A DNA stretch of 40,946 nucleotides, taken from sequence record MZ182246.1. One strand, given 5' to 3'. Of the stretch, positions 1,011-40,779 are shown piece by piece. Made by a program: the position numbers and the translations under genes. A model generated the notes under the pieces. It saw only the letters and a program-made list of their open reading frames with translations, ran no database searches and had not been told where the DNA came from. The stretch comes from Enterococcus phage vB_EfaS_785CS. Every line of letters begins with the position of its first letter. Within the stretch, counting starts at the first letter, position 1.

Positions 1011-1039
1011 ATTATAGCATACTTATTTGTAGTTTAGGG
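1011..1039 (-). promoter_or_regulatory. candidate leftward promoter with extended -10 (TGcTATAAT) and a weak -35
   Basis: The minus-strand sequence reads ...ccctaaactacaaataagtaTGCTATAAT... upstream of the RBS of the 770-961 ORF. Confidence 0.3.
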
Positions 1040-7409: not shown

Positions 7410-7412
7410 AAA

Positions 7413-11275: not shown

Positions 11276-11378
11276 ACAAAAAAAAAAGCCAACTCATAAG
11301 AGTTGACCTAAGATAGTTGAAGGTGGGAGGAATCACCTTTGCTATAAATATATTATAACATAAAATTAAAGTTTTGTG

Positions 11379-14053: not shown

Positions 14054-14236
14054 ATGAATAATGAACAAATGAGTTATAAAATGTTACTAATGTTAGACTA
14101 TGGTTTTACTGTAAATGACCTACTAAACACATTAGAGGAACGAACGGACCTAATTAAAATGGGGTTCACATTTAACGAGATTTTCAAAGCTAAGTGGTTA
14201 CGATTAAAGGCGGAGGACGAACGCAATGGAATTTGA
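14054..14236 (+). CDS. hypothetical protein
   Basis: ggagga at 14041-14046, 7 nt before the ATG at 14054. Confidence 0.45.
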   Translation: MNNEQMSYKMLLMLDYGFTVNDLLNTLEERTDLIKMGFTFNEIFKAKWLRLKAEDERNGI

Positions 14237-15299: not shown

Positions 15300-15309
15300 G
15301 GTTGCACAA

Positions 15310-15338
15310 ATTAGGGAAAGTATGTTATACTATTTAAG
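15310..15338 (+). promoter_or_regulatory. promoter TTGCAC-N17-TGtTATACT
   Basis: Read directly from the sequence. Confidence 0.35.
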
Positions 15339-15376
15339 TAGTAAAAAATAAAACAAATTATTGGAGGAATTTTATT

Positions 15377-16084: not shown

Positions 16085-16103
16085 AAATAAACAAACAAAA
16101 CCC

Positions 16104-16132
16104 TTGACTTATGTTAGGGGTTTTGTTATTAT
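16104..16132 (+). promoter_or_regulatory. terminator hairpin (aaaaccc..ggggtttt) overlapping a promoter (TTGACT-N17-TATTAT)
   Basis: Read directly from the sequence. Confidence 0.4.
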
Positions 16133-16154
16133 ATACATATAGGAGGGAATGACA

Positions 16155-16379
16155 ATGAAAAACACATTTAATGTAGGTAATTATGTAGAACTTAAAAATG
16201 ACAATCACAATGGTATTGGTAACAAAGGTGATAAAGTATATATCATAGCTAAGTTATTTAAACCAGTTGATGGTGTAGAACTTATCTGTAGATTTGCAAA
16301 TGGTGCCACAGAGGGTTTCTTACAACGTGAGTTGAAATTAGCAACAAAAACACTTGACAGAATTGTAATTGTAAAGTAA
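16155..16379 (+). CDS. hypothetical protein
   Basis: Start at the second ATG (ggaggg 7 nt upstream). Confidence 0.5.
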   Translation: MKNTFNVGNYVELKNDNHNGIGNKGDKVYIIAKLFKPVDGVELICRFANGATEGFLQRELKLATKTLDRIVIVK

Positions 16380-16413
16380 AATAATAGTATAAACAAATTG
16401 GAGGAATTAATAG

Positions 16414-17142
16414 ATGAAATATGTAGGAAGTAAAAATAGACTTAGTAAAGAGTTAGCACCAATCATTCAATCATATATCAACGATAATACAGTTGCATAT
16501 ATTGAGCCATTTGTAGGTGGAGCAAATATGATTGATAAAATTAAACACCATAATAAAATAGGTAGTGACTTACACAAGGAATTAATTGCATTGCATAGAT
16601 TCAATAGAGATTACAGTGATAAATTACCACACACAATCACAGAAGAACAATATCTAAGTGTTAAAAACAACAAGACTGCGTACCCTGATTATTACATTGG
16701 TTTAGTTGGTTTTTGTGCAACATTTGGTGCCAAATACTTTGGTGGATATGCTAGAGGATATAAACCAGATGGAGTAACACCACGTGACCTACCTAATGAA
16801 GCAATACGAAATTTACAAAAGCAATCACCAAGTATTCAAGGAATTACATTTGAATGTAAGTCATTTACTGATTACAAGCCATCTGAATATAAAAATTGTG
16901 TGTTCTACTTAGACCCACCATATAGAAAAACACTATCATATTCAACAGGTGGTTTTCCATATGAAGAATTTGATAAATGGGCTATAGAGTTAGCAAAAAA
17001 CAACACTGTATTAATAAGTGAATATGAACTACCTGAAGATAAATTTGAATGTATCTGGAGTAAAGATGTTAAGGTTGGTATTAGTGGTCAAGGGGATATA
17101 AAAAACAAAAAAAGAGTTGAAAAATTATTTAAAGTACGTTAA
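16414..17142 (+). CDS. dam: DNA N6-adenine methyltransferase (Dam-like, D12 class)
   Basis: IEPFVGGANM (motif I, FxGxG) and FYLDPPY (motif IV, DPPY). Confidence 0.85.
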   Translation: MKYVGSKNRLSKELAPIIQSYINDNTVAYIEPFVGGANMIDKIKHHNKIGSDLHKELIALHRFNRDYSDKLPHTITEEQYLSVKNNKTAYPDYYIGLVGFCATFGAKYFGGYARGYKPDGVTPRDLPNEAIRNLQKQSPSIQGITFECKSFTDYKPSEYKNCVFYLDPPYRKTLSYSTGGFPYEEFDKWAIELAKNNTVLISEYELPEDKFECIWSKDVKVGISGQGDIKNKKRVEKLFKVR

Positions 17143-17177
17143 GATAGTAGTATAAACAAATTGGAGGAATTAAACAT

Positions 17178-18137
17178 ATGAAGAACATTGCAGAATTTAA
17201 AAATGCACCAGAACTAGCTGAAAAACTATTGGAAGTATTCAGTAACTTAAAAGGTAATTCACGAAGTCTTGACCCTATGAGAGCTGGTCAACATGATGTG
17301 GTTGTGATTGAATCAACTGAAAAGTTATCAGCAAAAGGAAAAGAAATGAAAGTAGTTAAAATGCGCTCACTAGAAGATGGTAGGGACGTTACAAGCTACA
17401 TCATGAAGTTTCGCAAATATGACTGGGATAAATGGAAAAATGTTGAAGTTGGTGACCGTTTATTGATTGATTTGAAGTTCAGTAATGGTTTTGCTACAGT
17501 AAAACCAATCAGAAGTATTTCAAGTGGTAATGTTGTACCATTTAAACCAAGTGAACCATTAACAAAGCAAACCATTTTATTATTTGATATTGAGATTTTT
17601 AAACATGACAGTTTATTTGTATTTCGTGATTACTTTACCAAAGAATGGGTTATCATTAATAACAACCTTGACGAATTACGCAAGTTTTACCTTGAATACC
17701 GTGATTCAATGTTTATTGGGTATAATAATGCGTCATATGACAACAATGTAATGCGTGGGTATCTACAAGGCAAAAATGCTTATCAGATGTCTAAGGCAAT
17801 TATTGAATCAGATAATAGAGGTCTAGTTTACAAAATGTTTGATAGTCATAAAACACCACTTTTTGGTATGGACCTATATCAAGATAACAAAGGTTTTAGC
17901 TTAAAAGAACATTCAGCATTCTTAGGCATCAACATTAAAGAAACAGAAGTAGACTTTGATATGGATAGACCATTGACAGAGGAAGAAAAAGCGAAAAACA
18001 TTGCATACTGTAAAAATGATGTATTAGCAACTGAAAAACGTTTTGAACAAAACATAAGTATGTTGTTAGCTAAAGCAACTATTGCTTTAATGTTTGACAT
18101 GGATAAGACAGACTTATTACAACCAATGCTAACTTAA
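17178..18137 (+). CDS. family-B DNA polymerase, N-terminal and 3'-5' exonuclease part
   Basis: Exo I LLFDIEIF, Exo II GYNNASYDNNV, Exo III YCKNDVLATE. Confidence 0.7.
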   Translation: MKNIAEFKNAPELAEKLLEVFSNLKGNSRSLDPMRAGQHDVVVIESTEKLSAKGKEMKVVKMRSLEDGRDVTSYIMKFRKYDWDKWKNVEVGDRLLIDLKFSNGFATVKPIRSISSGNVVPFKPSEPLTKQTILLFDIEIFKHDSLFVFRDYFTKEWVIINNNLDELRKFYLEYRDSMFIGYNNASYDNNVMRGYLQGKNAYQMSKAIIESDNRGLVYKMFDSHKTPLFGMDLYQDNKGFSLKEHSAFLGINIKETEVDFDMDRPLTEEEKAKNIAYCKNDVLATEKRFEQNISMLLAKATIALMFDMDKTDLLQPMLT

Positions 18138-18181
18138 CAGCTAAGTTACTTGGTGCAACCAAACAAGAAGTTAGACCAGAC

Positions 18182-19468
18182 TTGACAGACCCATTAGAGT
18201 TAGATAAACGATTAAACATTAATACAAAAGAGATTGCAGACGCATATCTCAATCATGACTTTGAATTAAACGAAAAAGGCAAACTAAACGTGTCACTAAA
18301 CTACACTACTGAAGATGGTTATGAAATGGTCTATGGTAGTGGTGGTGTACACGGTGCGGTACCTAGCTATATTCATATTGGATTATTCCCAATGCGTGAC
18401 TGGGGTTCACTATATCCAAATACAATGGTTCAGTTCAACCTACTATCAAGAAACATTCCAAAAGATAAACTTCACCGCTATAGTGACTTACTTAAACAAC
18501 GCATGGATGCTAAGTATTCAGGTGAAGAAACAGCAGATATTAAAGGCGTAAAGGTACCAACTTGGGTAATGATTAACGGTATCAAGTTACCGCTTAACAC
18601 TAAGTTTGGTGCCAGTGGTGCGCAGTTTAATGGTTTATATGACCCAAGAAACCAATTCTTGGTTTGTGCAACTGGTCAGTTGATTATGACAAACATGTTT
18701 GAATTAATTAAAGGTAAAGCACAATTCATTCAATCAAATACGGACGCACACGCATATATTCCAAACAGTGAAGCAGATGATAAAGCAATTGATGAAGCTT
18801 TAGATGAGTTCGCCAACAAGATTGGTCTTACACTAGATAAAGATATGTTCCGTGAGATTTGGCAAAAAGATGTAAATAATTATATTGCAGTACAACCAAA
18901 TGGAAAAGTAAAAGTAAAAGGTGCTATAGGCTTAACTGGTGGTATGAAAGTGTCAAAAGCGATTGTATCAAATGCGTTCATTAATTATCTGGTAGCTGGT
19001 AAAGACTACAAAGAATTTATTGAAGAATGTGAAGATGTAAGACAGTTTCAAATTATTACCAAAACTGGCTGGAGTTACGATAAAACAATTAAAAGAGACA
19101 TTGAAGGTAATGAAACCAGTGCTCAAAAGGTTAACCGCGTATTCGCAGTAAAAGACAAAACTAATGCAGTAGAATTGTTTAAGGTCAAAGAAGGTCAATT
19201 ATTAGATATTGAAGCTGATGAATTTAAGGATAATATTTCATATACAAAAGGATTGGTAAACGCTCCAGAATACTACAGAATCAGTAATGAAGCAATTGGT
19301 GAAGGTATTACCATTGATGAAATTGACAAACAATACTATATTGACCAGGTAGAAGACACGTTAGTCCTTTGGTTTGGTGAAAACTACAAAGAAAGGGTTG
19401 AACAAGCACATCATGAAAGAGAATTACAAGGATTCAAACCAGTTGAAGTGAAAAATTATATTGACTAA
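18182..19468 (+). CDS. family-B DNA polymerase, polymerase part
   Basis: Motif A DWGSLYPNTM (Dx2SLYP), motif B-like KLPLNTKFG, motif C-like SNTDAHAY. The frame is open upstream to 18107. The track's start is a TTG. Confidence 0.7.
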   Translation: MTDPLELDKRLNINTKEIADAYLNHDFELNEKGKLNVSLNYTTEDGYEMVYGSGGVHGAVPSYIHIGLFPMRDWGSLYPNTMVQFNLLSRNIPKDKLHRYSDLLKQRMDAKYSGEETADIKGVKVPTWVMINGIKLPLNTKFGASGAQFNGLYDPRNQFLVCATGQLIMTNMFELIKGKAQFIQSNTDAHAYIPNSEADDKAIDEALDEFANKIGLTLDKDMFREIWQKDVNNYIAVQPNGKVKVKGAIGLTGGMKVSKAIVSNAFINYLVAGKDYKEFIEECEDVRQFQIITKTGWSYDKTIKRDIEGNETSAQKVNRVFAVKDKTNAVELFKVKEGQLLDIEADEFKDNISYTKGLVNAPEYYRISNEAIGEGITIDEIDKQYYIDQVEDTLVLWFGENYKERVEQAHHERELQGFKPVEVKNYID

Positions 19469-19472
19469 AGTG

Positions 19473-19501
19473 TTGACAAATGATAGGTAAGGTGTTATAC
19501 T
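19473..19501 (+). promoter_or_regulatory. promoter TTGACA-N17-TGtTATACT
   Basis: Inverted repeat gataggtaa / ttacctatc around the -10. Confidence 0.45.
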
Positions 19502-19531
19502 TTACCTATCAACTAATAGGAGGAATTAAGA

Positions 19532-19801
19532 ATGATTAAAGTATATACTAAAAATAATTGCATGGCTTGCAAAATTACCAAGCGCAAACTACAGGAGTTA
19601 GGTGTTAACTATAAAGAAATTAATGTAGATGAAGATTGGAAAGGATTAAACTATTTATTAGAGCGGGGGTTAACTTCTTTACCAGTGGTTTTCAAAGATG
19701 ATGAACCTATTGTAACTGGTGGATTTGCACCAAATATCTTAGAAACCTGTGTGTCAGAGGAGCATTCTAAGCACTTTTCAGATGAAAAGGTGGGTAATTA
19801 A
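19532..19801 (+). CDS. nrdH: NrdH/glutaredoxin-like redoxin
   Basis: IKVYTKNNCMACK with a CxxC active site. Size 89 aa. Confidence 0.75.
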   Translation: MIKVYTKNNCMACKITKRKLQELGVNYKEINVDEDWKGLNYLLERGLTSLPVVFKDDEPIVTGGFAPNILETCVSEEHSKHFSDEKVGN

Positions 19802-19803
19802 TC

Positions 19804-20334
19804 ATGAAAGAACACTGGAGAGATATTAAAGATTATGAAGGGTTATATCAGGTTAGTGACTTAGGTAGAGTGAAAAGATGTAAAGGTAGTTATTCGCGGT
19901 CAGAACGGATTTTGAAACCACAGTTTAATAACCATGGTTATCTGCGTGTACACTTATATAAAAATAATAAACCAACGCACATTAGAGTTCACCGTTTAGT
20001 AGCAGAAGCATTCATACCTAACCTAGAAAACAAACCAGAGGTAAACCATCTTGATGAAGATAAAACAAACAACATGGTCTCTAATCTTGAATGGTGTACA
20101 AGAAACGAGAATGTAAATCACGGAACACGTAATAAAAGAATTTCAAAGAAACTTAAAGTAATATCTAAGGGAACCAAAATCAAAGCTATAGATATAGCAA
20201 ACGGCGAATGGAATGAGTATTGCTCAATTAGAGAATGTGCGAGACAGTTAGAGCTTGATTCGTCCAATATCAGAAAGTGTTTAAACGGTGAACGCAGACA
20301 CACTGGTGGGTATATGTTTGAATATTTAGAATAA
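19804..20334 (+). CDS. HNH homing endonuclease (NUMOD4 + HNH_3)
   Basis: WRDIKDYEGLYQVSDLGRVKR. VHRLVAEAFIPN..VNHLDEDKTNNMVSNLEW. Confidence 0.85.
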   Translation: MKEHWRDIKDYEGLYQVSDLGRVKRCKGSYSRSERILKPQFNNHGYLRVHLYKNNKPTHIRVHRLVAEAFIPNLENKPEVNHLDEDKTNNMVSNLEWCTRNENVNHGTRNKRISKKLKVISKGTKIKAIDIANGEWNEYCSIRECARQLELDSSNIRKCLNGERRHTGGYMFEYLE

Positions 20335-21867: not shown

Positions 21868-22012
21868 GTTAGCATCTCCTTATTTTATAGTAAACCACCG
21901 CCTTTCAGCTACTATTATAGTATATCACTTAAATAGGGGAAATGGTGTGCTTCATAGGAACATTCTAAGCGTTTTTCAGTCGCCAATGTGGGTGATTATC
22001 CATTTAAAAGCA

Positions 22013-28978: not shown

Positions 28979-30938
28979 GCATGTCTAGGTCAACTAATCC
29001 TTTGCCTTCCCATGCTGATTTAAAGTTATAACCCCATGATTTTAACCCACTAAATGCTGATTTGAATTGGTTTACTGCTGAATCAATTCTATTGATACCC
29101 TTAGCGTCTAAGCCAAGTGCGCCAACGTTGATAATACCTTCACCTTTCCAGATGCGTTTAATGTTTTCTGCCCACATGCCCACTTTTTTACCAAAGTCTG
29201 ATAAGTAACCCCACGCTTCACCTGTAACTTTTCCAAATACATCAAAGGTACCCTTGAATAGCTTACCAACCCATGAAAGGTTTTTGGCTAATTCAGGTAG
29301 GCTGTCACCTAATCCACCCAAGAAAGCTTCAAACCTTTTACCTGTGTTTGTTATCTGCTCTTGGAAAGATGGTAGACCCATTTTCTCTAGTGATTTGTTT
29401 AGTCCTTCAATCATCTTAGCTGTACCACGCGTAACAGCTGACTTCATGTTGGCTATTGCAGTACCAAAACCTTGTGTGCTATCTTTAGCTATCTTTTCTA
29501 ATGACTTAAGACCGCCACCACCTTCTTTATCCATTTTAACTAAGGCGTCTTGGAACTGTCTTACTGATATGCTACCTGATGACAATCCTTCTTTTAATGC
29601 CCCTGTTGTCATGCCCATTTCTTTAGCTAAGGCATTAAGGGTAGGTCCTAAACCACTGTTAATCATTGAGTTCCACGTTTGCGCATCTACCTTACCATTT
29701 GAGAACGATTGAGATAACTGAACAACCGCGCTGTCAACCATTTGGGCATCTCCGCCAAAACCTAGGATAGCATCATTCATTGCCTTAAATACGTCAACGG
29801 ACAATCCCATGTCGTCAGTTGAAGCTGTTAATAATTGCACGTTACTCACTGCACTGTCTAAGGCTGTTGGTAAACCACGTGTTGCCTCTTGTAACTTATC
29901 CATGTTCTTAGTGATGTCTTTTGTAGCTACACCCATGTTCTCAAATGCACGTGTACTATTGTTTAATGTATCAATCCTATTTAATGCACCATCAATAGAT
30001 GATTTAACAGTATCAAACGCTTTTGAACCAATGTTTGCAACTGCACCTAATGCGCCAGCACCTAAGAATATACCTACACCTTTTGTTGCTGAACCAATAG
30101 CAGAACCAATCTTGCCAAATCCTGACTTGATAGAACTACCTACACCAGAAGCTGTCTTTTTAAGTGATGAAAACACACCATCTAACTTACTAGCACTTGA
30201 ACTAGCTTCTTTTGATTCTGTACTTACACCCTTCATTGCTTTTTCTGTTTCTTTTAGTTCATCACCTAAAGCATCCACATTCTTTTCACTTTTGCGTGCT
30301 TCATTTGCGTATGCTTGTAGTTTTTGCTGTGCTTCTTTTACCTCTGTTGAGTTAGCACCATACTTCTTAGTTAACTGTGTGACCTCATTTGACTGTTCTC
30401 TGACAGCCTTGTTCATTATCTCTAGGTTGCGTCGTTGACCCTCTTGTTTTGCCTTAACAACGTCTATCTCTGTACCGTGTTTTTTGGCAATAGCAACTTC
30501 TTTTTCTGTTGCCTTGTTATTAGCTTCAACTTGTCTACCGTATTTACTTGAAGAAACCACTTGTTTCTCTAGTGCTGTTGTTGTTTTTGATAACTGTTGG
30601 TTGTATGCATTATACTTAGCTGTTGATTGATTAATTTTAGTGTTAAGATTGTCAACTTGCTTAGATTCAGCACCATATTTCTGAATGGCTTCATCTCTGC
30701 GCTTTTGTAAAATCTTAATCTTTTGTTCTTCTAACCCCATTACTGTGTTTAAGTCTTTTGTTTTTTGACTTAAACCTTGCATACTCTTACCACCGTCATC
30801 AAAAGCCTTTGCATTTGCACGCATAGCACTTTCAGCTTGTCGCATTTTACTTTGCAACTGGTCAAGTGTTTTAATGGTATTATCTACACCCTCAACACCT
30901 ATACCAAACTTCATGTTACCAATTGGTTTATCTGCCAT
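28941..30938 (-). CDS. tail tape measure protein, N-terminal part
   Basis: Coiled-coil Q/K/E-rich sequence typical of TMP N-termini. RBS aaaggagaacttgaataATG. Confidence 0.75.
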   Translation of the reverse strand: MADKPIGNMKFGIGVEGVDNTIKTLDQLQSKMRQAESAMRANAKAFDDGGKSMQGLSQKTKDLNTVMGLEEQKIKILQKRRDEAIQKYGAESKQVDNLNTKINQSTAKYNAYNQQLSKTTTALEKQVVSSSKYGRQVEANNKATEKEVAIAKKHGTEIDVVKAKQEGQRRNLEIMNKAVREQSNEVTQLTKKYGANSTEVKEAQQKLQAYANEARKSEKNVDALGDELKETEKAMKGVSTESKEASSSASKLDGVFSSLKKTASGVGSSIKSGFGKIGSAIGSATKGVGIFLGAGALGAVANIGSKAFDTVKSSIDGALNRIDTLNNSTRAFENMGVATKDITKNMDKLQEATRGLPTALDSAVSNVQLLTASTDDMGLSVDVFKAMNDAILGFGGDAQMVDSAVVQLSQSFSNGKVDAQTWNSMINSGLGPTLNALAKEMGMTTGALKEGLSSGSISVRQFQDALVKMDKEGGGGLKSLEKIAKDSTQGFGTAIANMKSAVTRGTAKMIEGLNKSLEKMGLPSFQEQITNTGKRFEAFLGGLGDSLPELAKNLSWVGKLFKGTFDVFGKVTGEAWGYLSDFGKKVGMWAENIKRIWKGEGIINVGALGLDAKGINRIDSAVNQFKSAFSGLKSWGYNFKSAWEGKGLVDLDMLGLSDKKNENCI

Positions 30939-31521
30939 TATTCAAGTTCTCCTTTCGCTCTAGCCATCTCTGCTGGTGATAATACTGAACCAAAGAATGA
31001 CATAGGGTCTTGCTTCTTCTCTTTTTTAGGGGCTTTCTGATTGTTAAATAAATCTAAAAGAAAGTAGTAATCAGAATTGTTTATCTCTGATAAACTCCAA
31101 TTACCACTTTCTAATAGTTGTCTATATAAGTCATCAAAGTTTTCTAACTGTTCTGTGAATGACGTATTTTCTAATTCTTTTAACTCATCAGCCCCTAGGC
31201 TTTTTTTCCTTCGTCATTGCTTCCCATTGCATTTGAGAAAATATCTTCAATCGTAGGCATTAGGTCATCAGCTGTAATTGAATCTTGAATTGCATCAAAT
31301 GTAACACGTGGGTCCATGAACATATCAGCTACTAATTGAATCATTTCATCAATCATTTGTAATTCTGACATTTCAACTTCACCAGCTTCAACTTTTTCAA
31401 CTGTTGCATGGAATTTAATTAGTTCACGCATTGAACGAGTTGAAATTGATTTTTGTTTGACTGTAAAACTTTTTCCTTCTTCATTTTGTAGTGTAATTTT
31501 AATCATAATTGATTCCTCCAA
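30938..31521 (-). CDS. tail assembly chaperone G-T fusion via programmed -1 frameshift
   Basis: The heptamer A AAA AAA (forward T7 at 31201-31207) sits 3 codons before the G stop. The -1 frame is open for 85 codons with no stop and ends at TAA overlapping the tape measure ATG (taATGg). Confidence 0.65.
31195..31521 (-). CDS. tail assembly chaperone (gpG-like)
   Basis: 108 aa acidic protein between the major tail and tape measure genes. It ends at the slippery run GGA AAA AAA GCC TAG. Confidence 0.7.
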   Translation of the reverse strand: MEESIMIKITLQNEEGKSFTVKQKSISTRSMRELIKFHATVEKVEAGEVEMSELQMIDEMIQLVADMFMDPRVTFDAIQDSITADDLMPTIEDIFSNAMGSNDEGKKA

Positions 31522-31592
31522 TAAAGTTATTTTTCTTACTAAAGATATTATAGCATAAACACTAGTGGTTGTGGGTGTTGGTGAAACCAGTG

Positions 31593-31622
31593 TAATAAAA
31601 AAGAAGAGCCGTTAAGCTCTTC
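31593..31622 (-). terminator. rho-independent terminator after the major tail gene
   Basis: gaagagc-cgttaa-gctcttc followed on the minus strand by a U-run. Confidence 0.55.
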
Positions 31623-31627
31623 TAAGT

Positions 31628-31691
31628 CAATTCAATTGTTGCTGATGTTTCAGCTGGTGTCACCTGTCCTACCACAGGTGGCGTACTAGGG
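31628..31691. repeat. 64-nt repeat element, copy A, at the 3' end of the major tail protein gene
   Basis: Identical except for one base to 34014-34077. It contains the hairpin cacctgt..acaggtg. Confidence 0.85.
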
Positions 31692-32252
31692 CAATGGATT
31701 AATATTGTTTACTTTGTCAACAAACTTATCAAGTGTTAATGTTTCGCTTGAAACAGCACTCATGTATGCGAAGCCACGTGAATCTGTTACAAATGAACCT
31801 TCAATTGTTTCTGTGTTTGGTTCTGTACCACCAGATTCTGTTGTATTCAATGCGATTTCTGGGTGGCTGAAACGTCCTTTAACTAAACCAAAGTACATTT
31901 CTTTACCATCTGCACCGTCTGCAACAAATACTGCTGAAACGTAAGGTGCTTCTGTATCTTCGCCAACGATTGCAATACCATCTTCACCACGTTCAATACC
32001 TAAAATTTTCTCATAAACGTTGTCTTTATACAAGTCAAATACGTTTAATGAAGCTGTTAACTCTCCAACCCCTTTAGCTGATACCCAAATTGGAACGTTT
32101 GACGCATAAACGGTTGTTTGTTCTGCTGAAATTCCTTGAATTGACGCTTCAATAGTACCGCCACCGCTTTTATCAATTGTGTATTTATCAACGCCAGAAC
32201 CTTCTGCTTTAGGTACGCTGATAATAGCTTTCTTAAAACCTACTACTGCCAT
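31686..32252 (-). CDS. major tail protein
   Basis: 188 aa, Gly/Val/Thr-rich, placed between the connector genes and the chaperone. Confidence 0.7.
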   Translation of the reverse strand: MAVVGFKKAIISVPKAEGSGVDKYTIDKSGGGTIEASIQGISAEQTTVYASNVPIWVSAKGVGELTASLNVFDLYKDNVYEKILGIERGEDGIAIVGEDTEAPYVSAVFVADGADGKEMYFGLVKGRFSHPEIALNTTESGGTEPNTETIEGSFVTDSRGFAYMSAVSSETLTLDKFVDKVNNINPLP

Positions 32253-32330
32253 AATTGTTTCTCTCCTTTAGTGTTTATATTTTCTTACTAGAATAATTAT
32301 ATCATTAATCAACGTGTTTTAGGGTGTCAC

Positions 32331-32696
32331 TTAGACAACTCTTTGACTGATTGTGTAACGTTTGATAACTCTACGTGCACCCTCCAGGTCTGGGTCATAC
32401 GATTGTTGTGATAATACGCACTGCACATTATCTGCACGCATGGTCTTGTCAATTTCAAAGTAATACTTTTCAACTTCTTTCAAGTCCTCACACCACAAAT
32501 CCACCTGAACATGTGTTACAAAATAATTAGGGTCTGCACTGGCATATTCTGTGTACCGTCCGTCAAGTTCTACAATTCTACCTACTGGTAATTGTGGTAA
32601 TGTTTGAAATTCAGTGGGTACTTCATTAGTAAACCAGTTGACTTCTGGGTGTGCTTGCTCTAAAGCTTCTGCTACTTGTAATATTGGTAATCTCAT
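32331..32696 (-). CDS. tail completion/tail-tube connector protein (gp17-like)
   Basis: Assigned by position and size in the conserved head-tail connector block. Confidence 0.45.
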   Translation of the reverse strand: MRLPILQVAEALEQAHPEVNWFTNEVPTEFQTLPQLPVGRIVELDGRYTEYASADPNYFVTHVQVDLWCEDLKEVEKYYFEIDKTMRADNVQCVLSQQSYDPDLEGARRVIKRYTISQRVV

Positions 32697-33100
32697 TTTA
32701 GAAACGCCTCCTGCAATGCTTTTTGAATGATTGATGCAACTTCACTCTCAATACTGTTTATTGTTTTTTGTATAAACCCTTGTGGTCGTTGTTTGATTGT
32801 TCCTAACTCTGGAAAGTGTGCCATCCATGCCACATCATCATCAAAGCCAACTTCTGCTATATGGTTATTCTTATTTGCTTTACTCATTACAACATGGTCA
32901 CGCATATGTTCTTTTTTGTAGTCCTGACCATCCCTACTATACTTTGTGCCGTTAAAACGTGGTGTATTTTGCTTTAGTTCATTCATTGCTTTTTCACCAG
33001 CTGTATTCACTGCCTTACTAACAATTAGGTCAGCCTTTTTACCGCTTTTTTCTAATCGCTTGTAGACTTGTGAAAAGTCAACGTAGTTTGGACTACTCAT
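32693..33100 (-). CDS. HK97 gp10-family protein (tail-attachment component)
   Basis: 135 aa. Position and composition fit this family. Confidence 0.5.
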   Translation of the reverse strand: MSSPNYVDFSQVYKRLEKSGKKADLIVSKAVNTAGEKAMNELKQNTPRFNGTKYSRDGQDYKKEHMRDHVVMSKANKNNHIAEVGFDDDVAWMAHFPELGTIKQRPQGFIQKTINSIESEVASIIQKALQEAFLK

Positions 33101-33432
33101 TCCTTCACCCTCTTACATACAAGCGTTGTAAAGTCACGTTGGAAGCTACCTTCTAATACTTGTATGATGTCATAGTTAACACCGTTGTATACAACACGCA
33201 TAGTATTGTCAATATGAATCTGTTGTTCGTATCTGATAATGAAGTTTGTTGTATCCTCTAAAACAGTACCTAATGATTCTTTATAGTCTTTGAAATACTG
33301 TTGTTTTACTGAACACCATATAGTACCCTTGGTTTCCCAATCAGTGACCCACTCATAATATTCGTTCTTATGAGTGGTTTTATGTTGGATACTTATCTTT
33401 CTGTCAAGTCGTTGTGTTGGTATCAGTGGCAT
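33097..33432 (-). CDS. head closure / head-tail adaptor protein
   Basis: 111 aa, coupled to neighbours. Confidence 0.5.
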   Translation of the reverse strand: MPLIPTQRLDRKISIQHKTTHKNEYYEWVTDWETKGTIWCSVKQQYFKDYKESLGTVLEDTTNFIIRYEQQIHIDNTMRVVYNGVNYDIIQVLEGSFQRDFTTLVCKRVKE

Positions 33433-33706
33433 CTTGTAACCCCCTTAATTGATGAATCATTGCTACGATTGTAAAGGGTACTTGTTGTTGTAATGCGCTT
33501 GTTGCTGGTACTCTGTTTTCATACCATAATGAAACCAACATGAACTGTAATGTCTTGAATCGTTTATCATCTGGTGCGGTCTTTAACTCAATAGCTCCTA
33601 AGATGAATAGTTCACTCGTATCAATCAGTCCTTGTAGGTAGGTATCATCAAAATCATAGTCTAATCTTAGATTGTTTTTTACTTCTGCTAATGTTAACAT
33701 TATCAT
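33404..33706 (-). CDS. gp6-like head-tail connector protein
   Basis: The N-terminus LTLAEVKNNLRLDYDFDDTYLQGLID is typical of Phage_connect_1. Confidence 0.65.
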   Translation of the reverse strand: MIMLTLAEVKNNLRLDYDFDDTYLQGLIDTSELFILGAIELKTAPDDKRFKTLQFMLVSLWYENRVPATSALQQQVPFTIVAMIHQLRGLQDATDTNTTT

Positions 33707-33743
33707 ACCTCCTTAGTTAAAAAGAGGGCTTAACCCTCTTTTA

Positions 33744-33944
33744 TTATCCAGCTGTTGCAGTTGTAGTGAATGCTGGTACATCTACTTTACTAGACTCGGG
33801 TTTTCCATCTTCAATAGCTGTTACTTGAAAATCACCTTTACTATATGGTGTTTCTGCTGTTAAACCAGTGATTGTTACTGGTGAGGGTTGTCCAGTCACA
33901 ATCTTTTCACCTGTTTTCTTGTATACGTTAAATACTTTAGCCAT
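33744..33944 (-). CDS. small Ig/FN3-like domain protein
   Basis: PVTITGLTAETPYSKGDFQVTAIEDGKPES resembles an FN3/Big strand pattern. It has its own RBS (aaaggagagtgtaaattATG). Confidence 0.4.
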   Translation of the reverse strand: MAKVFNVYKKTGEKIVTGQPSPVTITGLTAETPYSKGDFQVTAIEDGKPESSKVDVPAFTTTATAG

Positions 33945-33965
33945 AATTTACACTCTCCTTTTATA

Positions 33966-34000
33966 GTTTAAAAAGAGGTAAGGCGAATGCCCCACCTCTT
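33966..34000 (-). terminator. rho-independent terminator after the capsid gene
   Basis: aagaggt..acctctt hairpin followed by a U5 run on the minus strand. Confidence 0.5.
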
Positions 34001-34013
34001 AGTGTTTACGATA

Positions 34014-34077
34014 ATTCAATTGTTGCTGATGTTTCAGCTGGTGTCACCTGCCCTACCACAGGTGGCGTACTAGGGTG
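34014..34077. repeat. 64-nt repeat element, copy B, at the 3' end of the major capsid gene
   Basis: See copy A. Confidence 0.85.
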
Positions 34078-35323
34078 CTGGTGTTAAAGTGATATATTTA
34101 CCAGCGTTTTTATCAACGACTTCACAGTCAAAGCGCATAGCTACTGCTAATACTTGACCGAAGTATTGATGCTCAACCCAACGTACAGTTGTGTCTACGC
34201 GGTCGAAGAAGACTGCGAATGCATCAGGTTGTCCTAAGAATGCTACTTTGTCACCGTCTACTGTACCAATTAATTTATCAGCTAAAACAGTTACTTTACG
34301 TCCTAATAGAGATTTACCAGATGGTGCTTTGATGTCATCTTCTAGTAAGTAACGACCGTTAGCGTCTTTCATTTGGTCTAAAGCGTTAAAGAATGATTGA
34401 GAAACAATAAACTCTAAGTTGTAAGCTGGGTCAAAACCAGTGTTAACTTGTGTTTTCAAGTCATCAATTGATGTTGCTGCTACTGCTGTTGCTGTTTTTA
34501 ATTTAGTAACGATAGCTTTGTTAGCTGTGTTCAAACCTTGACGTTGAATGTGACGTGCAATGATTCCAGATAAGTCATCATCAGAATCTTGTAAAGCTTC
34601 TTCTGCTACTGCAATTTGACCACGGTAAGTTTCAACTTCATATTTGACTTCTTCGAAAGCTGGTCCTTCTAAATCAGGGTTCTTTTTAAGTTCTTCAACT
34701 GATGCCAACACGGCTTCATTAGCTTTCAAGATTGGATATTTACCCATAGCATTTGTTACTTTTTGACGTGTAACCATATTACGTAAGTCAACAACTGTTT
34801 CAGGTAACATTTTAGCTTTTGTGATGATTTCTTCTGGGATAATTGCTGATGCATCCGCAGACTTAACACCTTCAAATGATTCAGGCAATGCACGTGTTTC
34901 TTTTGAGCGTAAGTATTCTAAGAATCCACGCACTTCTTTATTTTCTACTTCTTTTCCATCTAAAATAACTTTCTCCATGTTTTCTTCTCCTTTTTGCTCT
35001 AGTGAGCGTTTTTCTGTTTTAGGTTCTTCCTTTGGTTCCTCTTTAGGTTCTTCAAAATCTTGTTCAGTTTTTGCTGAACGTTCTTCTTTTGTTTCTTCCT
35101 TATCTTCTTTAGGTTCTTCCTTTGGTTCGTCCTTAGCATCTTCTGCTTTAGGTTCTTCCTCTGGTTTCTCCTCTTCTTTATTATCAACTGCACGTTCTTC
35201 TTCTTTAGGTTTTTCCTCATCTAAAGCTTTAATTTGTTGCATTACTTTTTCAGCTTCATCAAGTTTACCTTCTGATAATAAAGTTTGTGCTTGTTCCATA
35301 AGTTCTTGCCGTGACATACGCAC
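34070..35323 (-). CDS. major capsid protein (HK97-like) with E/K/P-rich N-terminal region
   Basis: 417 aa, follows the prohead protease gene. Low-complexity EEPKEEPKE repeats at residues about 35-105, then a capsid-like body. Confidence 0.75.
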   Translation of the reverse strand: MRMSRQELMEQAQTLLSEGKLDEAEKVMQQIKALDEEKPKEEERAVDNKEEEKPEEEPKAEDAKDEPKEEPKEDKEETKEERSAKTEQDFEEPKEEPKEEPKTEKRSLEQKGEENMEKVILDGKEVENKEVRGFLEYLRSKETRALPESFEGVKSADASAIIPEEIITKAKMLPETVVDLRNMVTRQKVTNAMGKYPILKANEAVLASVEELKKNPDLEGPAFEEVKYEVETYRGQIAVAEEALQDSDDDLSGIIARHIQRQGLNTANKAIVTKLKTATAVAATSIDDLKTQVNTGFDPAYNLEFIVSQSFFNALDQMKDANGRYLLEDDIKAPSGKSLLGRKVTVLADKLIGTVDGDKVAFLGQPDAFAVFFDRVDTTVRWVEHQYFGQVLAVAMRFDCEVVDKNAGKYITLTPAP

Positions 35324-35386
35324 ACCCCTTTAATATTATTTTTCTTACTAAAGATAGTATATCACGAACAAGGGAACTTGTGGGTG

Positions 35387-35974
35387 TTACTTGTATAACC
35401 CTAATAGGTTTAATTCTAATTCTAGTTTACGCTTTTGAAATTGTTTTGCTTCCTCTTCCATTTGTTCTAATGAACGTTTAGCCACACTAACATCTGTGTC
35501 TGCATATGCTGGAATTGAAACCAGTGAGATTTCAAATAGTGACTTGATTTGTTTGATAGTTCTGTGATTTATTCCATCAGCTTTGCGCCATTCATCTTTA
35601 GCAACTGTGAATCCAAACGAACACTGACTAAGGTCACCGCGTTTAACTAGTTCCATTGCATCACGTCCTACTGATGTATCAGGAAGTAATGCTCTAAATT
35701 TTAACCCAATGTCGTCAACCTCTAATGTTAATGTTCCACTCTTTGTCCGTCCTAATAACTTACTTGAATCATGGTCAACGAACATACGAACGTCACTCAT
35801 ATCAACACCATCTAATGCACGCTTATCTATGAACTCAATGAATCCACCTAAGTTTTCACTAGGTGAATCAAACTTTAAAGCGTAGCCTTCAACAATATTG
35901 TCTGTTACTGTTTCAACCTGTTGTAGTTGTCTAATTTCAAGATTCTTCACTTGCTGACACTCCTTCTTTTTCAT
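35387..35974 (-). CDS. prohead protease (HK97/S78 family)
   Basis: FIEFIDKRALDGVD...VDHD...LGR...GLKF...SFGF blocks. Confidence 0.8.
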   Translation of the reverse strand: MKKKECQQVKNLEIRQLQQVETVTDNIVEGYALKFDSPSENLGGFIEFIDKRALDGVDMSDVRMFVDHDSSKLLGRTKSGTLTLEVDDIGLKFRALLPDTSVGRDAMELVKRGDLSQCSFGFTVAKDEWRKADGINHRTIKQIKSLFEISLVSIPAYADTDVSVAKRSLEQMEEEAKQFQKRKLELELNLLGLYK

Positions 35975-37088
35975 CTACTTTCATTAATTCTTCACCTTCT
36001 TCAACATCTGCATAACCTAAATAGTCACGAATTTCGTTAGTCTTAATTGCTTTTAGCAACTCTTTATTCTGTTTGCCTTCAAAAACTCGTTTACGTCTAT
36101 CTTCATAGGTATCATTTAATAATGTTGTGAGGTCTAATTCTAACTCGTTACCTGTTTTAATTTCAATTTCATCACAGATAGCTCTTTCATATTGGCTAAT
36201 AGTTGAAGCAATATAGATGTCATTTGCACCACTATCTGTAGAGTTTACTAATTCCATACCAAAGCGGTTCAATGGAATACCTAATACTTTTGCAATCTGT
36301 TGTGTACTAAACTTGTTACCTTGAATCAGTTTAAGAATATCAGTATTCATTTTGTATTCTTGGAATTCTGTTGATTCGTCTAAGACAATAACACCATTAC
36401 TGTTAGTGCTACCACCGTTTGCCTTTTCAAAGTCCTGTCTGATTTTTGCTTTTGTTTCGTTATCAACGTAACCGCCTTTTAGTTTCAAGATACCTCCACC
36501 AAATACACCGTTGGCAAAGAACTTGCTTAAAATCTTACTACCGTTTGATTGCATAGCTACTTCATCTTTCAATGATAGTAAAGGACTTCTACCAAGGAAA
36601 CCATCTACAGTTGTAATTCTAAAGTGCAAAATATCTTCTGGTTTACATTTGTACATGATGCTACCATAGTCCATTGTTACGTCATAGGTCCATTCACCTG
36701 TTGTAACGTTTTGGATTACATTTACTTGTTCAGGTTTTACAAACTCCAAGCTCTCAACTACTCCTAATTTATCTCTGTGGATTAATGCATATGAGTTACC
36801 GCTTAGAATCAAGTTTGCTACTGTTGCGTACATGAACATGTAATGACTTTGTTTATTGTTTGGTCGTTTGTTAATCATTTTTAGAAATTGTTCATCAGCT
36901 TCACTATTCTTAGTTGGTCTAAATTTTGACTGTCCTAAGTCACCACTAATAATGTTGATACCTGTGAAAATGTCTGAATTACGTAATGCCTTTTCACCTG
37001 TGATTTCTGTTGAATAAATGTCACTGCTTTCGATAAAGTCAATGAAGTTCTGCTTTGTTGTGCTTCTAGGTGCGACAAAAACTCCCAT
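35937..37088 (-). CDS. portal protein (HK97 family)
   Basis: 383 aa, placed between TerL and the protease. Typical portal composition. Confidence 0.75.
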   Translation of the reverse strand: MGVFVAPRSTTKQNFIDFIESSDIYSTEITGEKALRNSDIFTGINIISGDLGQSKFRPTKNSEADEQFLKMINKRPNNKQSHYMFMYATVANLILSGNSYALIHRDKLGVVESLEFVKPEQVNVIQNVTTGEWTYDVTMDYGSIMYKCKPEDILHFRITTVDGFLGRSPLLSLKDEVAMQSNGSKILSKFFANGVFGGGILKLKGGYVDNETKAKIRQDFEKANGGSTNSNGVIVLDESTEFQEYKMNTDILKLIQGNKFSTQQIAKVLGIPLNRFGMELVNSTDSGANDIYIASTISQYERAICDEIEIKTGNELELDLTTLLNDTYEDRRKRVFEGKQNKELLKAIKTNEIRDYLGYADVEEGEELMKVDEKEGVSASEES

Positions 37089-39048: not shown

Positions 39049-39070
39049 TTTGCATACCTCCTCATTCCCT

Positions 39071-39101
39071 ATTATAGCACAAATAAAAAGACTTAGGTCA
39101 T
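39071..39101 (-). promoter_or_regulatory. candidate promoter for terL (TGcTATAAT extended -10)
   Basis: The minus strand reads ...catgacctaagtctttttatttgTGCTATAATagggaatgaggagg. Confidence 0.35.
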
Positions 39102-39139
39102 GAGTTTATCCAAAGGGGATAACAAACTTACCTAAGTCA
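39081..39139 (-). terminator. long hairpin terminator inside the terS-terL intergenic region
   Basis: gacttaggt ... acctaagtc outer stem with nested agttt/aaact and atcc/ggat stems, then a U5 run on the minus strand. Confidence 0.5.
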
Positions 39140-39468
39140 ATTGGTCGCACTGCAACCGTTCTTCAATGATTAAGTGTTGTTATGTGGTTGGCTGACCTTC
39201 CACATACGGACACCCCCACAACACTTAATAGAGTTTTGCTCACTTGGTTAAGGAGTTAAGAGCATTCCTTTTTGTTAGGTTTTCACACCTATGGTTGCGC
39301 TACTGTTAAGCATAGTAGTTGCTACTCCTAGTATTCTTTTTACTTATCTAAGCCCCTAGGCGGGAGCAAGCTACAACCCTAGCCCGCTAACATGTACGCA
39401 ACTATTGGAGTAGTTGCGACTGAATAACATAGAATATCTTTTACATAAATACATTATAACACAAAATG
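39140..39468 (-). ncRNA. candidate structured noncoding RNA (unclassified)
   Basis: No ORF. GC-enriched relative to the flanks. Multiple perfect helices (cgcaacta/tagttgcg, taagtgttgt/acaacactta enclosing atgtgg/ccacat, cggg/cccg, aggt/acct). Confidence 0.3.
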
Positions 39469-39942
39469 TTAACCTTGTGCGCGCATTTTAAGCAACTGAC
39501 CTAATGGGTCGTTTGATTCGTTCTCTATTTCTTTTGGCGCTACCAGTTTTAATCTTGAATTGATAGTTAAACCTAAATCGTTTGTTGCACTTTTGATTTG
39601 CTTACTATAACCCATCATTGCGGTTACTTTGGGGTTTAGCTTTCCGTCTGATGTCACTTCACCCTCAATAGAAACCTCTTCTGCTAATTTACTATATAAG
39701 TAAACGTAGTTACAGTAAGAAACCATGGTCTGCGAATCTAACTCACTTAATGGTAAATCTCCTACGAATGCACCTATACGTTCCCACTCTGCGTAGGCTC
39801 CTCTTAATAATCCCATTGGGAAGTATGAAAAATCTAATGGTTCGTAGTTGTATAGTTTTTCTTCTTCTTTTTGTTTTTTTAGTCGTTCTTCTTCAGTAAA
39901 ATGTTTGCTACTTGCGTTAAGGAGTTTTTTTGGGCGACTCAC
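39469..39942 (-). CDS. terS: terminase small subunit (P27-like)
   Basis: 157 aa. The N-terminus MSRPKK..SKHFTEEE is typical of P27-family TerS. It lies immediately upstream of the terL region. Confidence 0.65.
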   Translation of the reverse strand: MSRPKKLLNASSKHFTEEERLKKQKEEEKLYNYEPLDFSYFPMGLLRGAYAEWERIGAFVGDLPLSELDSQTMVSYCNYVYLYSKLAEEVSIEGEVTSDGKLNPKVTAMMGYSKQIKSATNDLGLTINSRLKLVAPKEIENESNDPLGQLLKMRAQG

Positions 39943-40485: not shown

Positions 40486-40514
40486 AGTATAACATATTAT
40501 ATAGGAGGTGTCAA
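40486..40514 (-). promoter_or_regulatory. consensus promoter TTGACA-N17-TATACT driving the HNH-terS-terL operon
   Basis: The minus strand reads ttgacacctcctatataatatgttatact. Confidence 0.5.
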
Positions 40515-40779
40515 CTATACAACTTCAATAATTTCATAATGGTGATTCTTGCCACCTAACTTTGTTTTGACGTCTTTAAAAATAGCCCGATTTTTTATTA
40601 TAAAATCTATCTGCCTCAGTCTGTGATTTAAATGCTCTGGTTTGTTGTGTGCGTAAATCTTTTACCATAATAGGTTTCGGAGCTGGCATAGGGCTTTGTC
40701 ACCTACCTTTCATTATATATTTTAGTTTAAAAGAAAAACTCCCCTACCAATATTGTACCACAAAACTGTTGTTTGAGAA

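What the first reader, a model, noticed from the sequence alone, without database searches (positions are those of the whole stretch)
31536..31600. Distinctive conserved late-promoter architecture: ACACCC-N20-TATA(A/C)T followed by a shared leader ATCTTTAGTAAGAAAAATA
Upstream of the tail chaperone gene, the capsid gene, the major tail gene and, in looser form, the lysis cassette, the minus strand shows the same layout. The regions are at about 31536-31600, about 35338-35386, about 32262-32325 and about 21900-21950. Each has an ACACCC(A) box exactly 20 nt upstream of a TATAAT or TATACT -10. This gives a -35 hexamer of CCCACA or CCCTAA rather than TTGACA. Downstream lies a conserved leader; forward ttatttttcttactaaag is identical at 31536-31553 and 35338-35355. 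The early promoters on the other strand are canonical TTGAC(A/T)-N17-TATAnT. The contrast suggests the late genes depend on a phage-encoded activator or sigma-like factor that recognises the ACACCC box, and the shared leader may be a common translational or processing signal.
Basis: seen in the sequence. Interest (0 to 1): 0.55.

Follow-up and report, generated by a model that had tools for sequence, protein, structure and literature searches.

The report
Enterococcus phage delayed-gene promoter class
The repeated motif is real: it marks a family of host-polymerase promoters with attached short leaders, found only in this Enterococcus phage lineage, that carry an unusual CACAA box where the normal -35 signal would sit, but whether a phage protein reads that box is not shown.

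Summary
The window is an Efquatrovirus genome (Enterococcus phage LY0322-like). ACACCC-N17-TGnTATAMT-N5-TAGTAAGAAAA occurs three times on the minus strand, against 0.00 expected, upstream of the capsid, major tail and tape-measure chaperone genes. The lysis-cassette site is a loose relative with its own conserved box.

Every site has a TG-extended (TRTG-type) consensus -10, so this is a host sigma-A promoter. Also, ACACCC is only a lineage-specific flank. Across 111 unique related sites the conserved element is C-A-C-A-A at -33 to -29 (1.1-1.6 bits per position; never G at -33), while the spacer is unconstrained.

CACAA-N13-TGnTATAMT occurs five times in the window (0.01 expected). One site is on the early strand, before a probable SSB gene. 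Another drives a conserved small RNA with an anti-Shine-Dalgarno loop. The late strand also has canonical promoters.

No sigma-like, Ltr, MotA or AsiA homologue was found. An unrelated E. faecalis phage (SAP6) pairs its extended -10 with TTGACA.

Best reading: these are sigma-A extended -10 promoter-leader cassettes for abundant, delayed products. The CACAA box is probably the handle for a still unidentified phage-induced change in recognition. A factor-independent reading is nearly as likely.

The parts
31527..31578 (-). Class-L promoter-leader cassette before the tape-measure chaperone gene (ATG at 31506). ACACCC 31573-31578; CACAA 31569-31573; TG 31554-31555; TATAAT 31547-31552; predicted +1 A at 31540; leader TAGTAAGAAAAATAA 31527-31541.
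   Evidence: It follows the intrinsic terminator at 31602-31623. The ortholog in EfaCPT1 is annotated as the chaperone with a -1 frameshift.
35336..35387 (-). Class-L cassette before the major capsid gene (ATG at 35317). ACACCC 35382-35387; CACAA 35378-35382; TG 35363-35364; TATACT 35356-35361; predicted +1 A at 35349; leader identical to that of the chaperone site.
32275..32327 (-). Class-L cassette before the major tail protein gene (ATG at 32252). ACACCC 32322-32327; the -33..-29 element is the variant CTAAA (CCCTAAA); TG 32303-32304; TATAAT 32296-32301; predicted +1 A at 32289; leader TAGTAAGAAAATATAA.
   Evidence: The CCCTA variant is conserved at this position in heks, Q69 and EfaCPT1, and is replaced by AAACACAAA in IME-EFm1-type phages.
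21908..21950 (-). Lysis-cassette promoter, a loose relative: GCACACCATTTCC box, TGATATACT (-10 at 21919-21924), then N4 and TAGTAGC.
   Evidence: The same box sits in the same register in heks, Q69, EfaCPT1 and IME-EFm1.
15305..15354 (+). Class-L cassette on the early strand before ORF 15377-16084 (probable SSB). CACAA 15305-15309; TGTTATACT (-10 at 15326-15331); N7; leader TAGTAAAAAATAAAAC.
   Evidence: Present in all six genomes compared.
39453..39479 (-). CACAA-N13-TGTTATAAT promoter just after terS. It points into the 420-bp non-coding gap before terL and has no TAGTAA leader.
   Evidence: Orthologs: heks 6264 and IME-EFm1 938.
11352..11378 (-). CACAA-N13-TGTTATAAT promoter of the candidate small RNA, antisense within the early region.
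11278..11345 (-). Candidate small RNA of about 68 nt. It has a 5' hairpin with loop AUUCCUCC, followed by an intrinsic terminator.
1011..1039 (-). Leftward promoter of the control region: CCCTAAA at -35..-29 (same register as the tail-gene site), TGCTATAAT, and an AGTAAAGCAAAAAC leader one base out of register.
   Evidence: Orthologs have CCCTAAA in heks, Q69 and EfaCPT1, and CCAACACAAT in IME-EFm1.

Best explanation
The sites are promoter-plus-leader cassettes read by the host sigma-A RNA polymerase through a consensus, TG-extended (TRTG-type) -10. This is shown by sequence.

They belong to a lineage-specific class. Its hallmark is a five-base element, C-A-C-A-A (variant C-T-A-A-A), at exactly -33 to -29, where the early promoters have G-A-C-A-A of TTGACAA. 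ACACCC is the flank of that element in the LY0322 branch. This is shown by comparison with relatives.

The conserved 'leader' begins at the predicted start. T(-1) A(+1) G(+2) is a pyrimidine/purine start with G at +2. It continues as a purine-rich initial transcribed sequence and an unstructured A-rich 5' UTR of 32-37 nt ending in a strong Shine-Dalgarno sequence. I infer that this supports efficient promoter escape and translation.

The class sits before genes whose products are needed in bulk after the first minutes: capsid, tail tube, chaperone/tape measure, a probable SSB, and a small RNA.

I infer that the box, which replaces TTG with non-consensus bases and never carries G at -33, keeps these promoters from behaving like early ones. 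It most likely serves as the handle for a phage-induced change in polymerase recognition. That could be an early phage protein bound at the -35 position, or one that remodels sigma region 4, as in class II activation or T4-type sigma appropriation. The protein has not been identified.
For: Promoter identity: TGnTATAMT at all sites, with T at -17 and R at -16 in most of 111 unique sites. Each site lies 32-37 nt upstream of an SD and start codon. One site sits immediately after an intrinsic terminator.

Class element: information content is 1.30, 1.13, 1.21, 1.56 and 1.22 bits at -33..-29, against 0.06-0.24 bits at -28..-21. At -33 the counts are C 90, T 21, G 0, A 0.

Enrichment: CACAA-N13-TGnTATAMT occurs 5 times in the window against 0.01 expected. 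Each of six genomes has 3-8 such sites on the late strand and exactly one on the early strand, at orthologous positions.

Two discrete classes: about 14 early promoters have TTGAC(A/T).

Lineage specificity: none of the 10 TG-extended -10 sites in the 50 kb of the E. faecalis phage SAP6 that was scanned has CACAA, and 6 have TTGAC. In 2.9 million viral contigs the full layout gives 50 stretches. Three of 11 checked outliers are unrelated near-identical copies with TTCACAA, a near-consensus -35. About 10 stretches in all are unrelated, and the remainder come from 38-44 kb Enterococcus phage contigs of this lineage.

The CCCTAAA variant retains only A-30 of the TTGACA hexamer, yet it is conserved at two orthologous positions.

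Leader: 20/20 identity between the capsid and chaperone sites, beside a spacer with 5/13 identity. The predicted 5' UTRs are unstructured, with z-scores of -0.07 to +0.84.
Against: No transcription start sites or expression timing are known for this genus.

No candidate factor was found. There is no sigma70_r2/r4, ArpU/RinA, MotA or AsiA-like domain in the ORFs scanned. The only ORF that PHROGs calls a transcriptional regulator (3596-3817) is absent from heks and IME-EFm1, which both have the class.

A TG-extended consensus -10 can suffice in Firmicutes (my own knowledge), so an activator is not required. ACAA is shared with the early TTGACAA, so weak sigma region 4 contact could explain part of the conservation.

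The late strand also has canonical promoters. A related phage has a latent period of 8 min (PMC7503890), which leaves little time for a cascade.

The conservation figures come from related sequences, so the sites are not independent. The unconstrained spacer is the internal control.
Confidence: 0.45

Rival explanations
1. Factor-independent promoters. The same sigma-A extended -10 cassettes work without any phage protein. The CACAA box would be a deliberately weak partial -35 (ACA kept, TTG removed). Polymerase would then reach these promoters later or less competitively than the TTGACA early promoters. Output would rise with genome copy number and with the release of polymerase from host DNA. 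The leader would be there only for escape and translation.
For: The consensus TG/TRTG -10 is sufficient in Firmicutes (my own knowledge). No regulator is recognisable. ACAA is shared with the early TTGACAA. Canonical promoters also exist on the late strand. The latent period is very short. A probable SSB gene, usually not a strictly late gene, is in the class.
Against: It does not explain why -33 is C (90) or T (21) and never A or G. It does not explain why the CCCTAAA variant, which retains only A-30 of the TTGACA hexamer, is conserved. It also does not explain why another phage of the same host uses TTGACA with its extended -10.
Confidence: 0.35
2. Operator reading. The conserved box, or the conserved sequence around +1, is the binding site of a repressor (host or phage) that holds these promoters off until it is displaced or diluted.
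For: The conserved block spans the start site (-6 to +14) and is 20/20 identical between two sites. It has weak dyad symmetry, TCTT-N4-AAGA, seen directly in the sequence.
Against: The symmetry is trivial in T-rich/A-rich sequence and is not kept in relatives (TAACCTAGTAAG, AACTATAGTAAA). The early class has an equally conserved leader of its own. No DNA-binding protein was identified.
Confidence: 0.07
3. Not promoters. On this reading the three copies are a dispersed repeat or an RNA processing site within one long late transcript, and the TATAAT-like hexamers are incidental.
For: Two of the three sites have no terminator upstream, so read-through RNA would contain them. Similarity between copies extends upstream to about -55 in some relatives.
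Against: Divergence is concentrated in the spacer, while the box, TG, -10 and start region are kept in distant orthologs. The TG/-10/start spacing is fixed. One site follows an intrinsic terminator. There is no stable or covarying RNA structure and no Rfam match.
Confidence: 0.05
4. A phage-encoded alternative sigma factor recognises ACACCC as its -35.
For: The -35 position is non-canonical.
Against: The -10 is the sigma-A consensus with a TG extension. No ORF has a sigma domain. ACACCC is not conserved in relatives that keep the class.
Confidence: 0.03

Closest known systems
Gram-positive TG-extended -10 ('-16 region', TRTG) sigma-A promoters (my own knowledge: Voskuil and Chambliss; Sabelnikov et al. 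for Streptococcus pneumoniae)
   Same: Consensus TATAAT, TG at -15/-14, T at -17 and a purine at -16. The -35 hexamer is poor or absent, and the start is about 7 nt downstream.
   Different: Here the -35 position is not degenerate. It carries a specific conserved five-base element, with C in place of the consensus G, in a fixed register.
Phage T4 middle promoters with MotA/AsiA sigma appropriation (reviewed in PMC2988021, listed; details from my own knowledge)
   Same: Host primary-sigma -10, a class-specific box replacing the -35 hexamer at about -30, canonical -35/-10 early promoters, and a delayed class that includes replication genes such as the SSB.
   Different: The box sequence differs (CACAA against the MotA box TGCTTtA). 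No MotA or AsiA homologue is present. The host is a Firmicute. Dependence on a factor is not shown.
Thermus phage P23-45 middle/late promoters with gp39 and gp76 (PMC3950348 and PMC5758890, listed)
   Same: Delayed phage genes are read by the host polymerase from extended -10 promoters, while -35-dependent transcription is shut down by a small phage protein bound to the polymerase.
   Different: As far as I recall, those promoters have no conserved -35-position element. Their early genes use a phage polymerase. No homologue was looked for beyond the family libraries.
Ltr late activators of temperate Gram-positive phages (RinA, ArpU, LtrA-C; PMC3753634)
   Same: A phage-encoded activator switches on morphogenesis and lysis genes in phages of Firmicutes, including E. 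faecalis phages.
   Different: [quoted passage not shown] Here there are many short operons, a single box at -35, a canonical terS promoter and no Ltr homologue.
Phage T5 strong promoters with conserved transcribed 'downstream regions' (my own knowledge: Kammerer, Gentz and Bujard)
   Same: Class-specific sequence conservation from +1 to about +20 of host-polymerase promoters, purine-rich, affecting late steps of initiation.
   Different: Different host, different sequence, and untested here.

Membership tests
Sigma-A TG-extended -10 promoter | -10 hexamer close to TATAAT | tested here: met
   TATAAT, TATACT and TATAAT at the three sites. 111/111 related sites have T-12, A-11, A-9 and T-7, though these positions were fixed by the pattern used to collect the sites.
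Sigma-A TG-extended -10 promoter | TG at -15/-14, often with T at -17 and R at -16 (TRTG) | tested here: met
   TGC, TGA and TGA at the three sites. In 111 sites, -17 is T in 74 and -16 is A or G in 107.
Sigma-A TG-extended -10 promoter | Transcription starts 6-8 nt downstream and activity does not need a -35 hexamer | not testable with these tools
   Needs start-site mapping and in vitro transcription. No such data are in the literature searched.
T4-type sigma appropriation (MotA/AsiA middle promoters) | Class-specific box replacing the -35 hexamer, combined with a primary-sigma -10 | tested here: met
   CACAA at -33..-29 in a fixed register with TGnTATAAT. The sequence is unrelated to the MotA box.
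T4-type sigma appropriation (MotA/AsiA middle promoters) | MotA-like activator and AsiA-like anti-sigma encoded by the phage | tested here: not met
   No such Pfam, PHROG or NCBIfam family in the ORFs scanned. An unrelated functional analogue cannot be excluded.
Ltr (RinA/ArpU/LtrA-C) late activation | [quoted passage not shown] | tested here: not met
   No ArpU, RinA, sigma70_r4 or DUF1492 match in any ORF scanned. Defining features taken from PMC3753634.
Ltr (RinA/ArpU/LtrA-C) late activation | Three 7-nt direct repeats upstream of a single promoter before terS that drives one late operon | tested here: not met
   The terS/HNH promoter is TTGACA-N17-TATACT (40486-40517). The late strand is cut into about 8 units by terminators, each with its own promoter.
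Phage alternative sigma factor promoters (SPO1 gp28/gp34 type) | -10 element different from the sigma-A consensus, and a sigma-like gene | tested here: not met
   The -10 is TATAAT with TG. No sigma domain was found.
Structured cis-regulatory leader RNA | Conserved secondary structure or an Rfam family in the 5' UTR | tested here: not met
   No Rfam match at gathering threshold. Predicted 5' UTRs fold no better than shuffles.

The most novel reading that the evidence does not exclude
Efquatrovirus and the related E. faecium phages run a sigma-appropriation-like switch that has not been described in Firmicute siphophages. In this reading an unidentified early protein redirects sigma-A polymerase from TTGACA to a C-A-C-A-A element at -33..-29. 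That would turn on one regulon: capsid, tail tube, chaperone/tape measure, an SSB, and a 68-nt small RNA. The small RNA's invariant loop, AUUCCUCC, is the exact complement of the GGAGGAAU ribosome-binding sites of 11 early genes. Early translation would therefore be shut down as delayed transcription starts.
Probability: 0.25. Interest if true: 0.75.

Novelty: new variant of a known kind. Interest (0 to 1): 0.45.

Why it matters
Efquatroviruses are among the E. faecalis phages most often isolated for therapy, yet their transcription programme is unmapped. This analysis gives a defined, mutable promoter element: C-33 and CACAA, the TG extension, and a 20-nt start/leader block. It also gives a concrete regulon with which to test how a small virulent Firmicute phage times gene expression without any recognisable regulator.

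If the box is read by a phage factor, it would be a new route to redirecting a Gram-positive sigma-A polymerase. If it is not, the cassettes are still compact, strong, portable expression signals for Enterococcus, and a worked example of timing by promoter architecture alone.

The small RNA found in the same promoter class makes a phage-encoded translational shut-off directly testable.

Tried and rejected
(1) Inverted repeat or hairpin upstream of ACACCC, of the form GGGT(T)GTY-YAAGT-RACACCC centred near -42.5. It is strong in some tail-gene orthologs (z = -3.67). It is weak or absent at the window's three sites (z = -0.3, -0.8 and -1.6) and absent in a common capsid variant. I do not count it as part of the element.

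(2) Dyads inside the spacer. ACAAG-N4-CTTGT occurs at the capsid site and CACTAGTG at the chaperone site. They are centred differently and are broken in relatives.

(3) Link to the control-region iterons. The window has at least 15 copies of GTAAC(A/G)C at 1124-1514. IME-EFm1 has 8 copies of TKGG(G/T)ACACAAAA. The late boxes share GTAAC(A/G)C or ACACAA with them. A k-mer test gave no enrichment over the early promoters in Efquatrovirus. The IME-EFm1 excess is confounded by the way the class is defined. This remains a weak lead only.

(4) The PHROG 'transcriptional regulator' ORF 3596-3817 as the class factor. It is absent from heks and IME-EFm1.

(5) Pfam, PHROG, NCBIfam and PDB-sequence searches of the small conserved ORFs 14000-14236, 16149-16379 and 486-689 returned nothing informative.

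(6) Rfam search of the whole window gave no match.

(7) Searching the leader alone across viral contigs gave mostly chance hits outside this lineage.

(8) Literature search for Efquatrovirus promoters or transcriptomes found only predicted promoters.

(9) The first iteron script used the wrong offsets and was redone.

Full report
IDENTITY OF THE WINDOW. The 40,946-base window is a complete genome of the Efquatrovirus type. Bases 30000-36000 are 100% identical to Enterococcus phage LY0322, whose RefSeq annotation was used for gene names. Replication and early genes lie on the plus strand (about 1600-20300). Packaging, head, tail and lysis genes lie on the minus strand (40455 down to 20376). A short leftward gene set (961-115) lies beside a 600-bp control region.

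THE OBSERVATION. Read on the minus strand, the three main sites are as follows:
- Chaperone: ACACCCACAACCACTAGTGTTTATGCTATAATATCTTTAGTAAGAAAAATAA
- Capsid: ACACCCACAAGTTCCCTTGTTCGTGATATACTATCTTTAGTAAGAAAAATAA
- Tail tube: ACACCCTAAAACACGTTGATTAATGATATAATTATTCTAGTAAGAAAATATAA

ACACCC-N20-TATAMT is exact at all three. The composite including TG and TAGTAAGAAAA occurs 3 times against 0.00 in shuffles. TAGTAAGAAAA occurs without mismatch nowhere else.

Between the capsid and chaperone sites the box is 10/10 identical and the stretch from -6 to +14 is 20/20 identical. The spacer is only 5/13 identical. This is the pattern of selected elements, not of a recent duplication.

The lysis-cassette site is a looser relative. 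The early-strand contrast is real: about 14 intergenic TTGAC(A/T)-N17-TAtAnT promoters.

- Every site has TG at -15/-14, so these are extended -10 promoters. The window has 20 TGnTATAMT sites against 6.8 expected.
- The late strand is cut by intrinsic terminators after terL, capsid, tail tube, tape measure and Tal. Each is followed by a promoter. Two of these are canonical or nearly so: TTGACA-N17-TATACT before HNH/terS, and TTTACA-N17-TATAAT before Dit.
- ACACCC as such is not enriched.

COMPARISON WITH RELATIVES. I used 42 loci around the tail-tube gene from viral contigs and five further complete genomes: heks, Q69, TwoStep, EfaCPT1 and the E. faecium phage IME-EFm1.

The layout is kept at orthologous positions everywhere, but ACACCC is not. 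Variants include ACGCCC, AGGCAC and TCAAAC.

Anchoring 111 unique site sequences on the -10 shows where the constraint lies:
- Positions -33 to -29 carry 1.30, 1.13, 1.21, 1.56 and 1.22 bits, with consensus C-A-C-A-A.
- At -33 the counts are C 90, T 21, G 0 and A 0.
- Positions -28..-21 carry 0.06-0.24 bits.
- Positions -17/-16 read T and R, giving the TRTG motif.

The sites were selected on the -10 and the leader, not on the -35 region. The unconstrained spacer, which shares the same phylogeny, serves as the internal control.

The early promoters read TTGACAA at the same place. The two classes therefore differ at -35..-33 and share ACAA.

The tail-tube promoter and the leftward promoter at 1011-1039 carry the variant CCCTAAA in the same register in the Efquatrovirus genomes window, heks, Q69 and EfaCPT1. 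They carry CACAA in IME-EFm1.

THE CLASS IS WIDER THAN THE FINDING. CACAA-N13-TGnTATAMT occurs five times in the window against 0.01 expected:
- the capsid site;
- the chaperone site;
- a site just after terS;
- a site on the early strand before ORF 15377-16084, which also has the A-rich TAGTAA leader;
- a site antisense in the early region.

Each of six genomes has 3-8 such sites on the late strand and exactly one on the early strand.

The early-strand gene has no database match. All 22 aligned homologues end in an acidic linker followed by (D/E)(D/E)LPF. From my own knowledge, this resembles the C-terminal tip of bacterial SSB. The AlphaFold model (pLDDT 80) has two beta-barrel domains and a disordered tail. 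Its weak best fold matches are tandem-OB DNA binders, including a baculovirus SSB. I call it a probable SSB. The class therefore marks products needed in bulk after the first minutes, not simply the late strand.

SPECIFICITY. In the 50 kb of phage SAP6 that I scanned (same host, different genus), none of ten TG-extended -10 sites has CACAA and six have TTGAC.

A scan of 2.9 million viral contigs for CACAA-N13-TGnTATAAT-N5-TAGWAA found only 50 stretches. About ten stretches are unrelated, and several of those read TTCACAA, a near-consensus -35.

THE LEADER. With the -10 at -12..-7, the invariant T-A-G is -1, +1 and +2: a pyrimidine/purine start with G at +2. The RNA would start AGUAAGAAAAAUAA and reach the start codon after 32-37 nt. 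The predicted 5' UTRs fold no better than shuffles. Rfam has no match.

The early promoters share a different leader, nnGTnCATAAGnTAA-AGGAGGAA. Leader sharing is therefore a property of both promoter classes in this phage. I read the late leader as start site, purine-rich initial transcribed sequence and open A-rich UTR. This is an inference, with the conserved downstream regions of phage T5 promoters as the precedent (my own knowledge).

MECHANISM. What is shown: these are sigma-A-type extended -10 promoters with a class-specific, fixed-register element at the -35 position, conserved and specific to the lineage. What is inferred: the element either recruits or depends on a phage-induced change in polymerase recognition (0.45), or it is a tuned weak -35 that delays these promoters without any factor (0.35).

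For a factor:
- the absolute avoidance of G and A at -33;
- conservation of a variant (CCCTAAA) that retains only A-30 of the TTGACA hexamer;
- two discrete classes with no intermediates;
- the SAP6 control.

Against a factor:
- an extended -10 can suffice in Firmicutes;
- no regulator is recognisable;
- the one annotated regulator is not conserved in phages that have the class;
- canonical promoters exist on the late strand;
- a related phage has a latent period of 8 min.

A separate sigma factor is very unlikely, because the -10 is the sigma-A consensus and no sigma-like ORF exists.

COMPARISON WITH KNOWN SYSTEMS. In working principle the closest systems are Gram-positive TRTG extended -10 promoters and T4 middle promoters. 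Membership in the MotA/AsiA, Ltr (RinA/ArpU; PMC3753634) or phage-sigma systems fails on the protein features tested. No paper on promoters or transcriptomes of this genus was found. One genome paper lists only computer-predicted promoters (PMC7503890).

VERDICT. This is a new variant of a known kind: a phage temporal promoter class read by the host polymerase. It is of moderate interest in itself. The interest is raised by the coherent regulon and by the small RNA that shares the promoter class.

Noticed in passing
window 11278-11345 (-), promoter 11352-11378 (-): Candidate 68-nt small RNA in the early-region gap 11276-11437. It has a CACAA/extended -10 promoter, a 5' hairpin AAGGUG/CACCUU with the 8-nt loop AUUCCUCC, and an intrinsic terminator (MFE -20.3 kcal/mol, z = -4.28). 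It is conserved in LY0322, EfaCPT1, heks, Q69, TwoStep and IME-EFm1. The loop core UUCCUCC is kept in every phage compared (the full AUUCCUCC in all but IME-EFm1). TwoStep has two compensatory stem changes, and the terminator hairpins are unrelated between phages. The loop is the exact complement of GGAGGAAU. That octamer occurs 15 times in the window (0.45 expected), including the ribosome-binding sites of 11 early genes. No Rfam match.
   Followed up: partly
window 15377-16084 (+): An unannotated 235-aa protein found only in this phage lineage. It has an invariant C-terminal acidic tail ending in (D/E)(D/E)LPF. The model shows two beta-barrel domains, and the weak fold matches are to tandem-OB DNA binders. 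It is a probable SSB of a new sequence family.
   Followed up: partly
window 1100-1530: The control region between the divergent promoters holds at least 15 iterons with core GTAAC(A/G)C. Some are 13-bp palindromes (AAGTGTWACACTT) and some are direct repeats (AAGCGTTACAA). There are also two copies of a 25-nt palindromic unit, AAACGTTGATAWAYCAATGTTTATA. This is probably an origin or a regulator array. IME-EFm1 has a different iteron, TKGG(G/T)ACACAAAA, at the same place.
   Followed up: partly
window plus strand, e.g. 5955-5990, 6218-6250, 4282-4315, 9879-9915: The early promoters share their own conserved leader, nnGTnCATAAGnTAA, followed by (G)AGGAGGAAT. Both temporal classes are therefore built from promoter-leader cassettes.
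   Followed up: no
window 39049-39468: A 420-bp non-coding gap between terS and terL has several GC-rich hairpins. It is entered by a CACAA-class promoter at 39453-39479 and left through an extended -10 promoter at 39071-39079. It may be the cos region or a non-coding RNA.
   Followed up: no
window 4317-5902 (+): The primase is a single ORF of 528 codons in LY0322. In the window it is split into two overlapping ORFs (4317-4871 and 4811-5902). The early region also differs from LY0322 by about 345 bases of indels.
   Followed up: no
L004 about 592, L006 about 513, L166 (Q69) 4240: Some relatives carry a fourth ACACCC-type promoter directly after the terL stop codon (GGTGTTTAAGTAACACCCACAAGG...TGATATACT). 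At that position the window has a terminator plus TGGTAAAAT. The cassettes are therefore gained, lost or exchanged between sites.
   Followed up: partly
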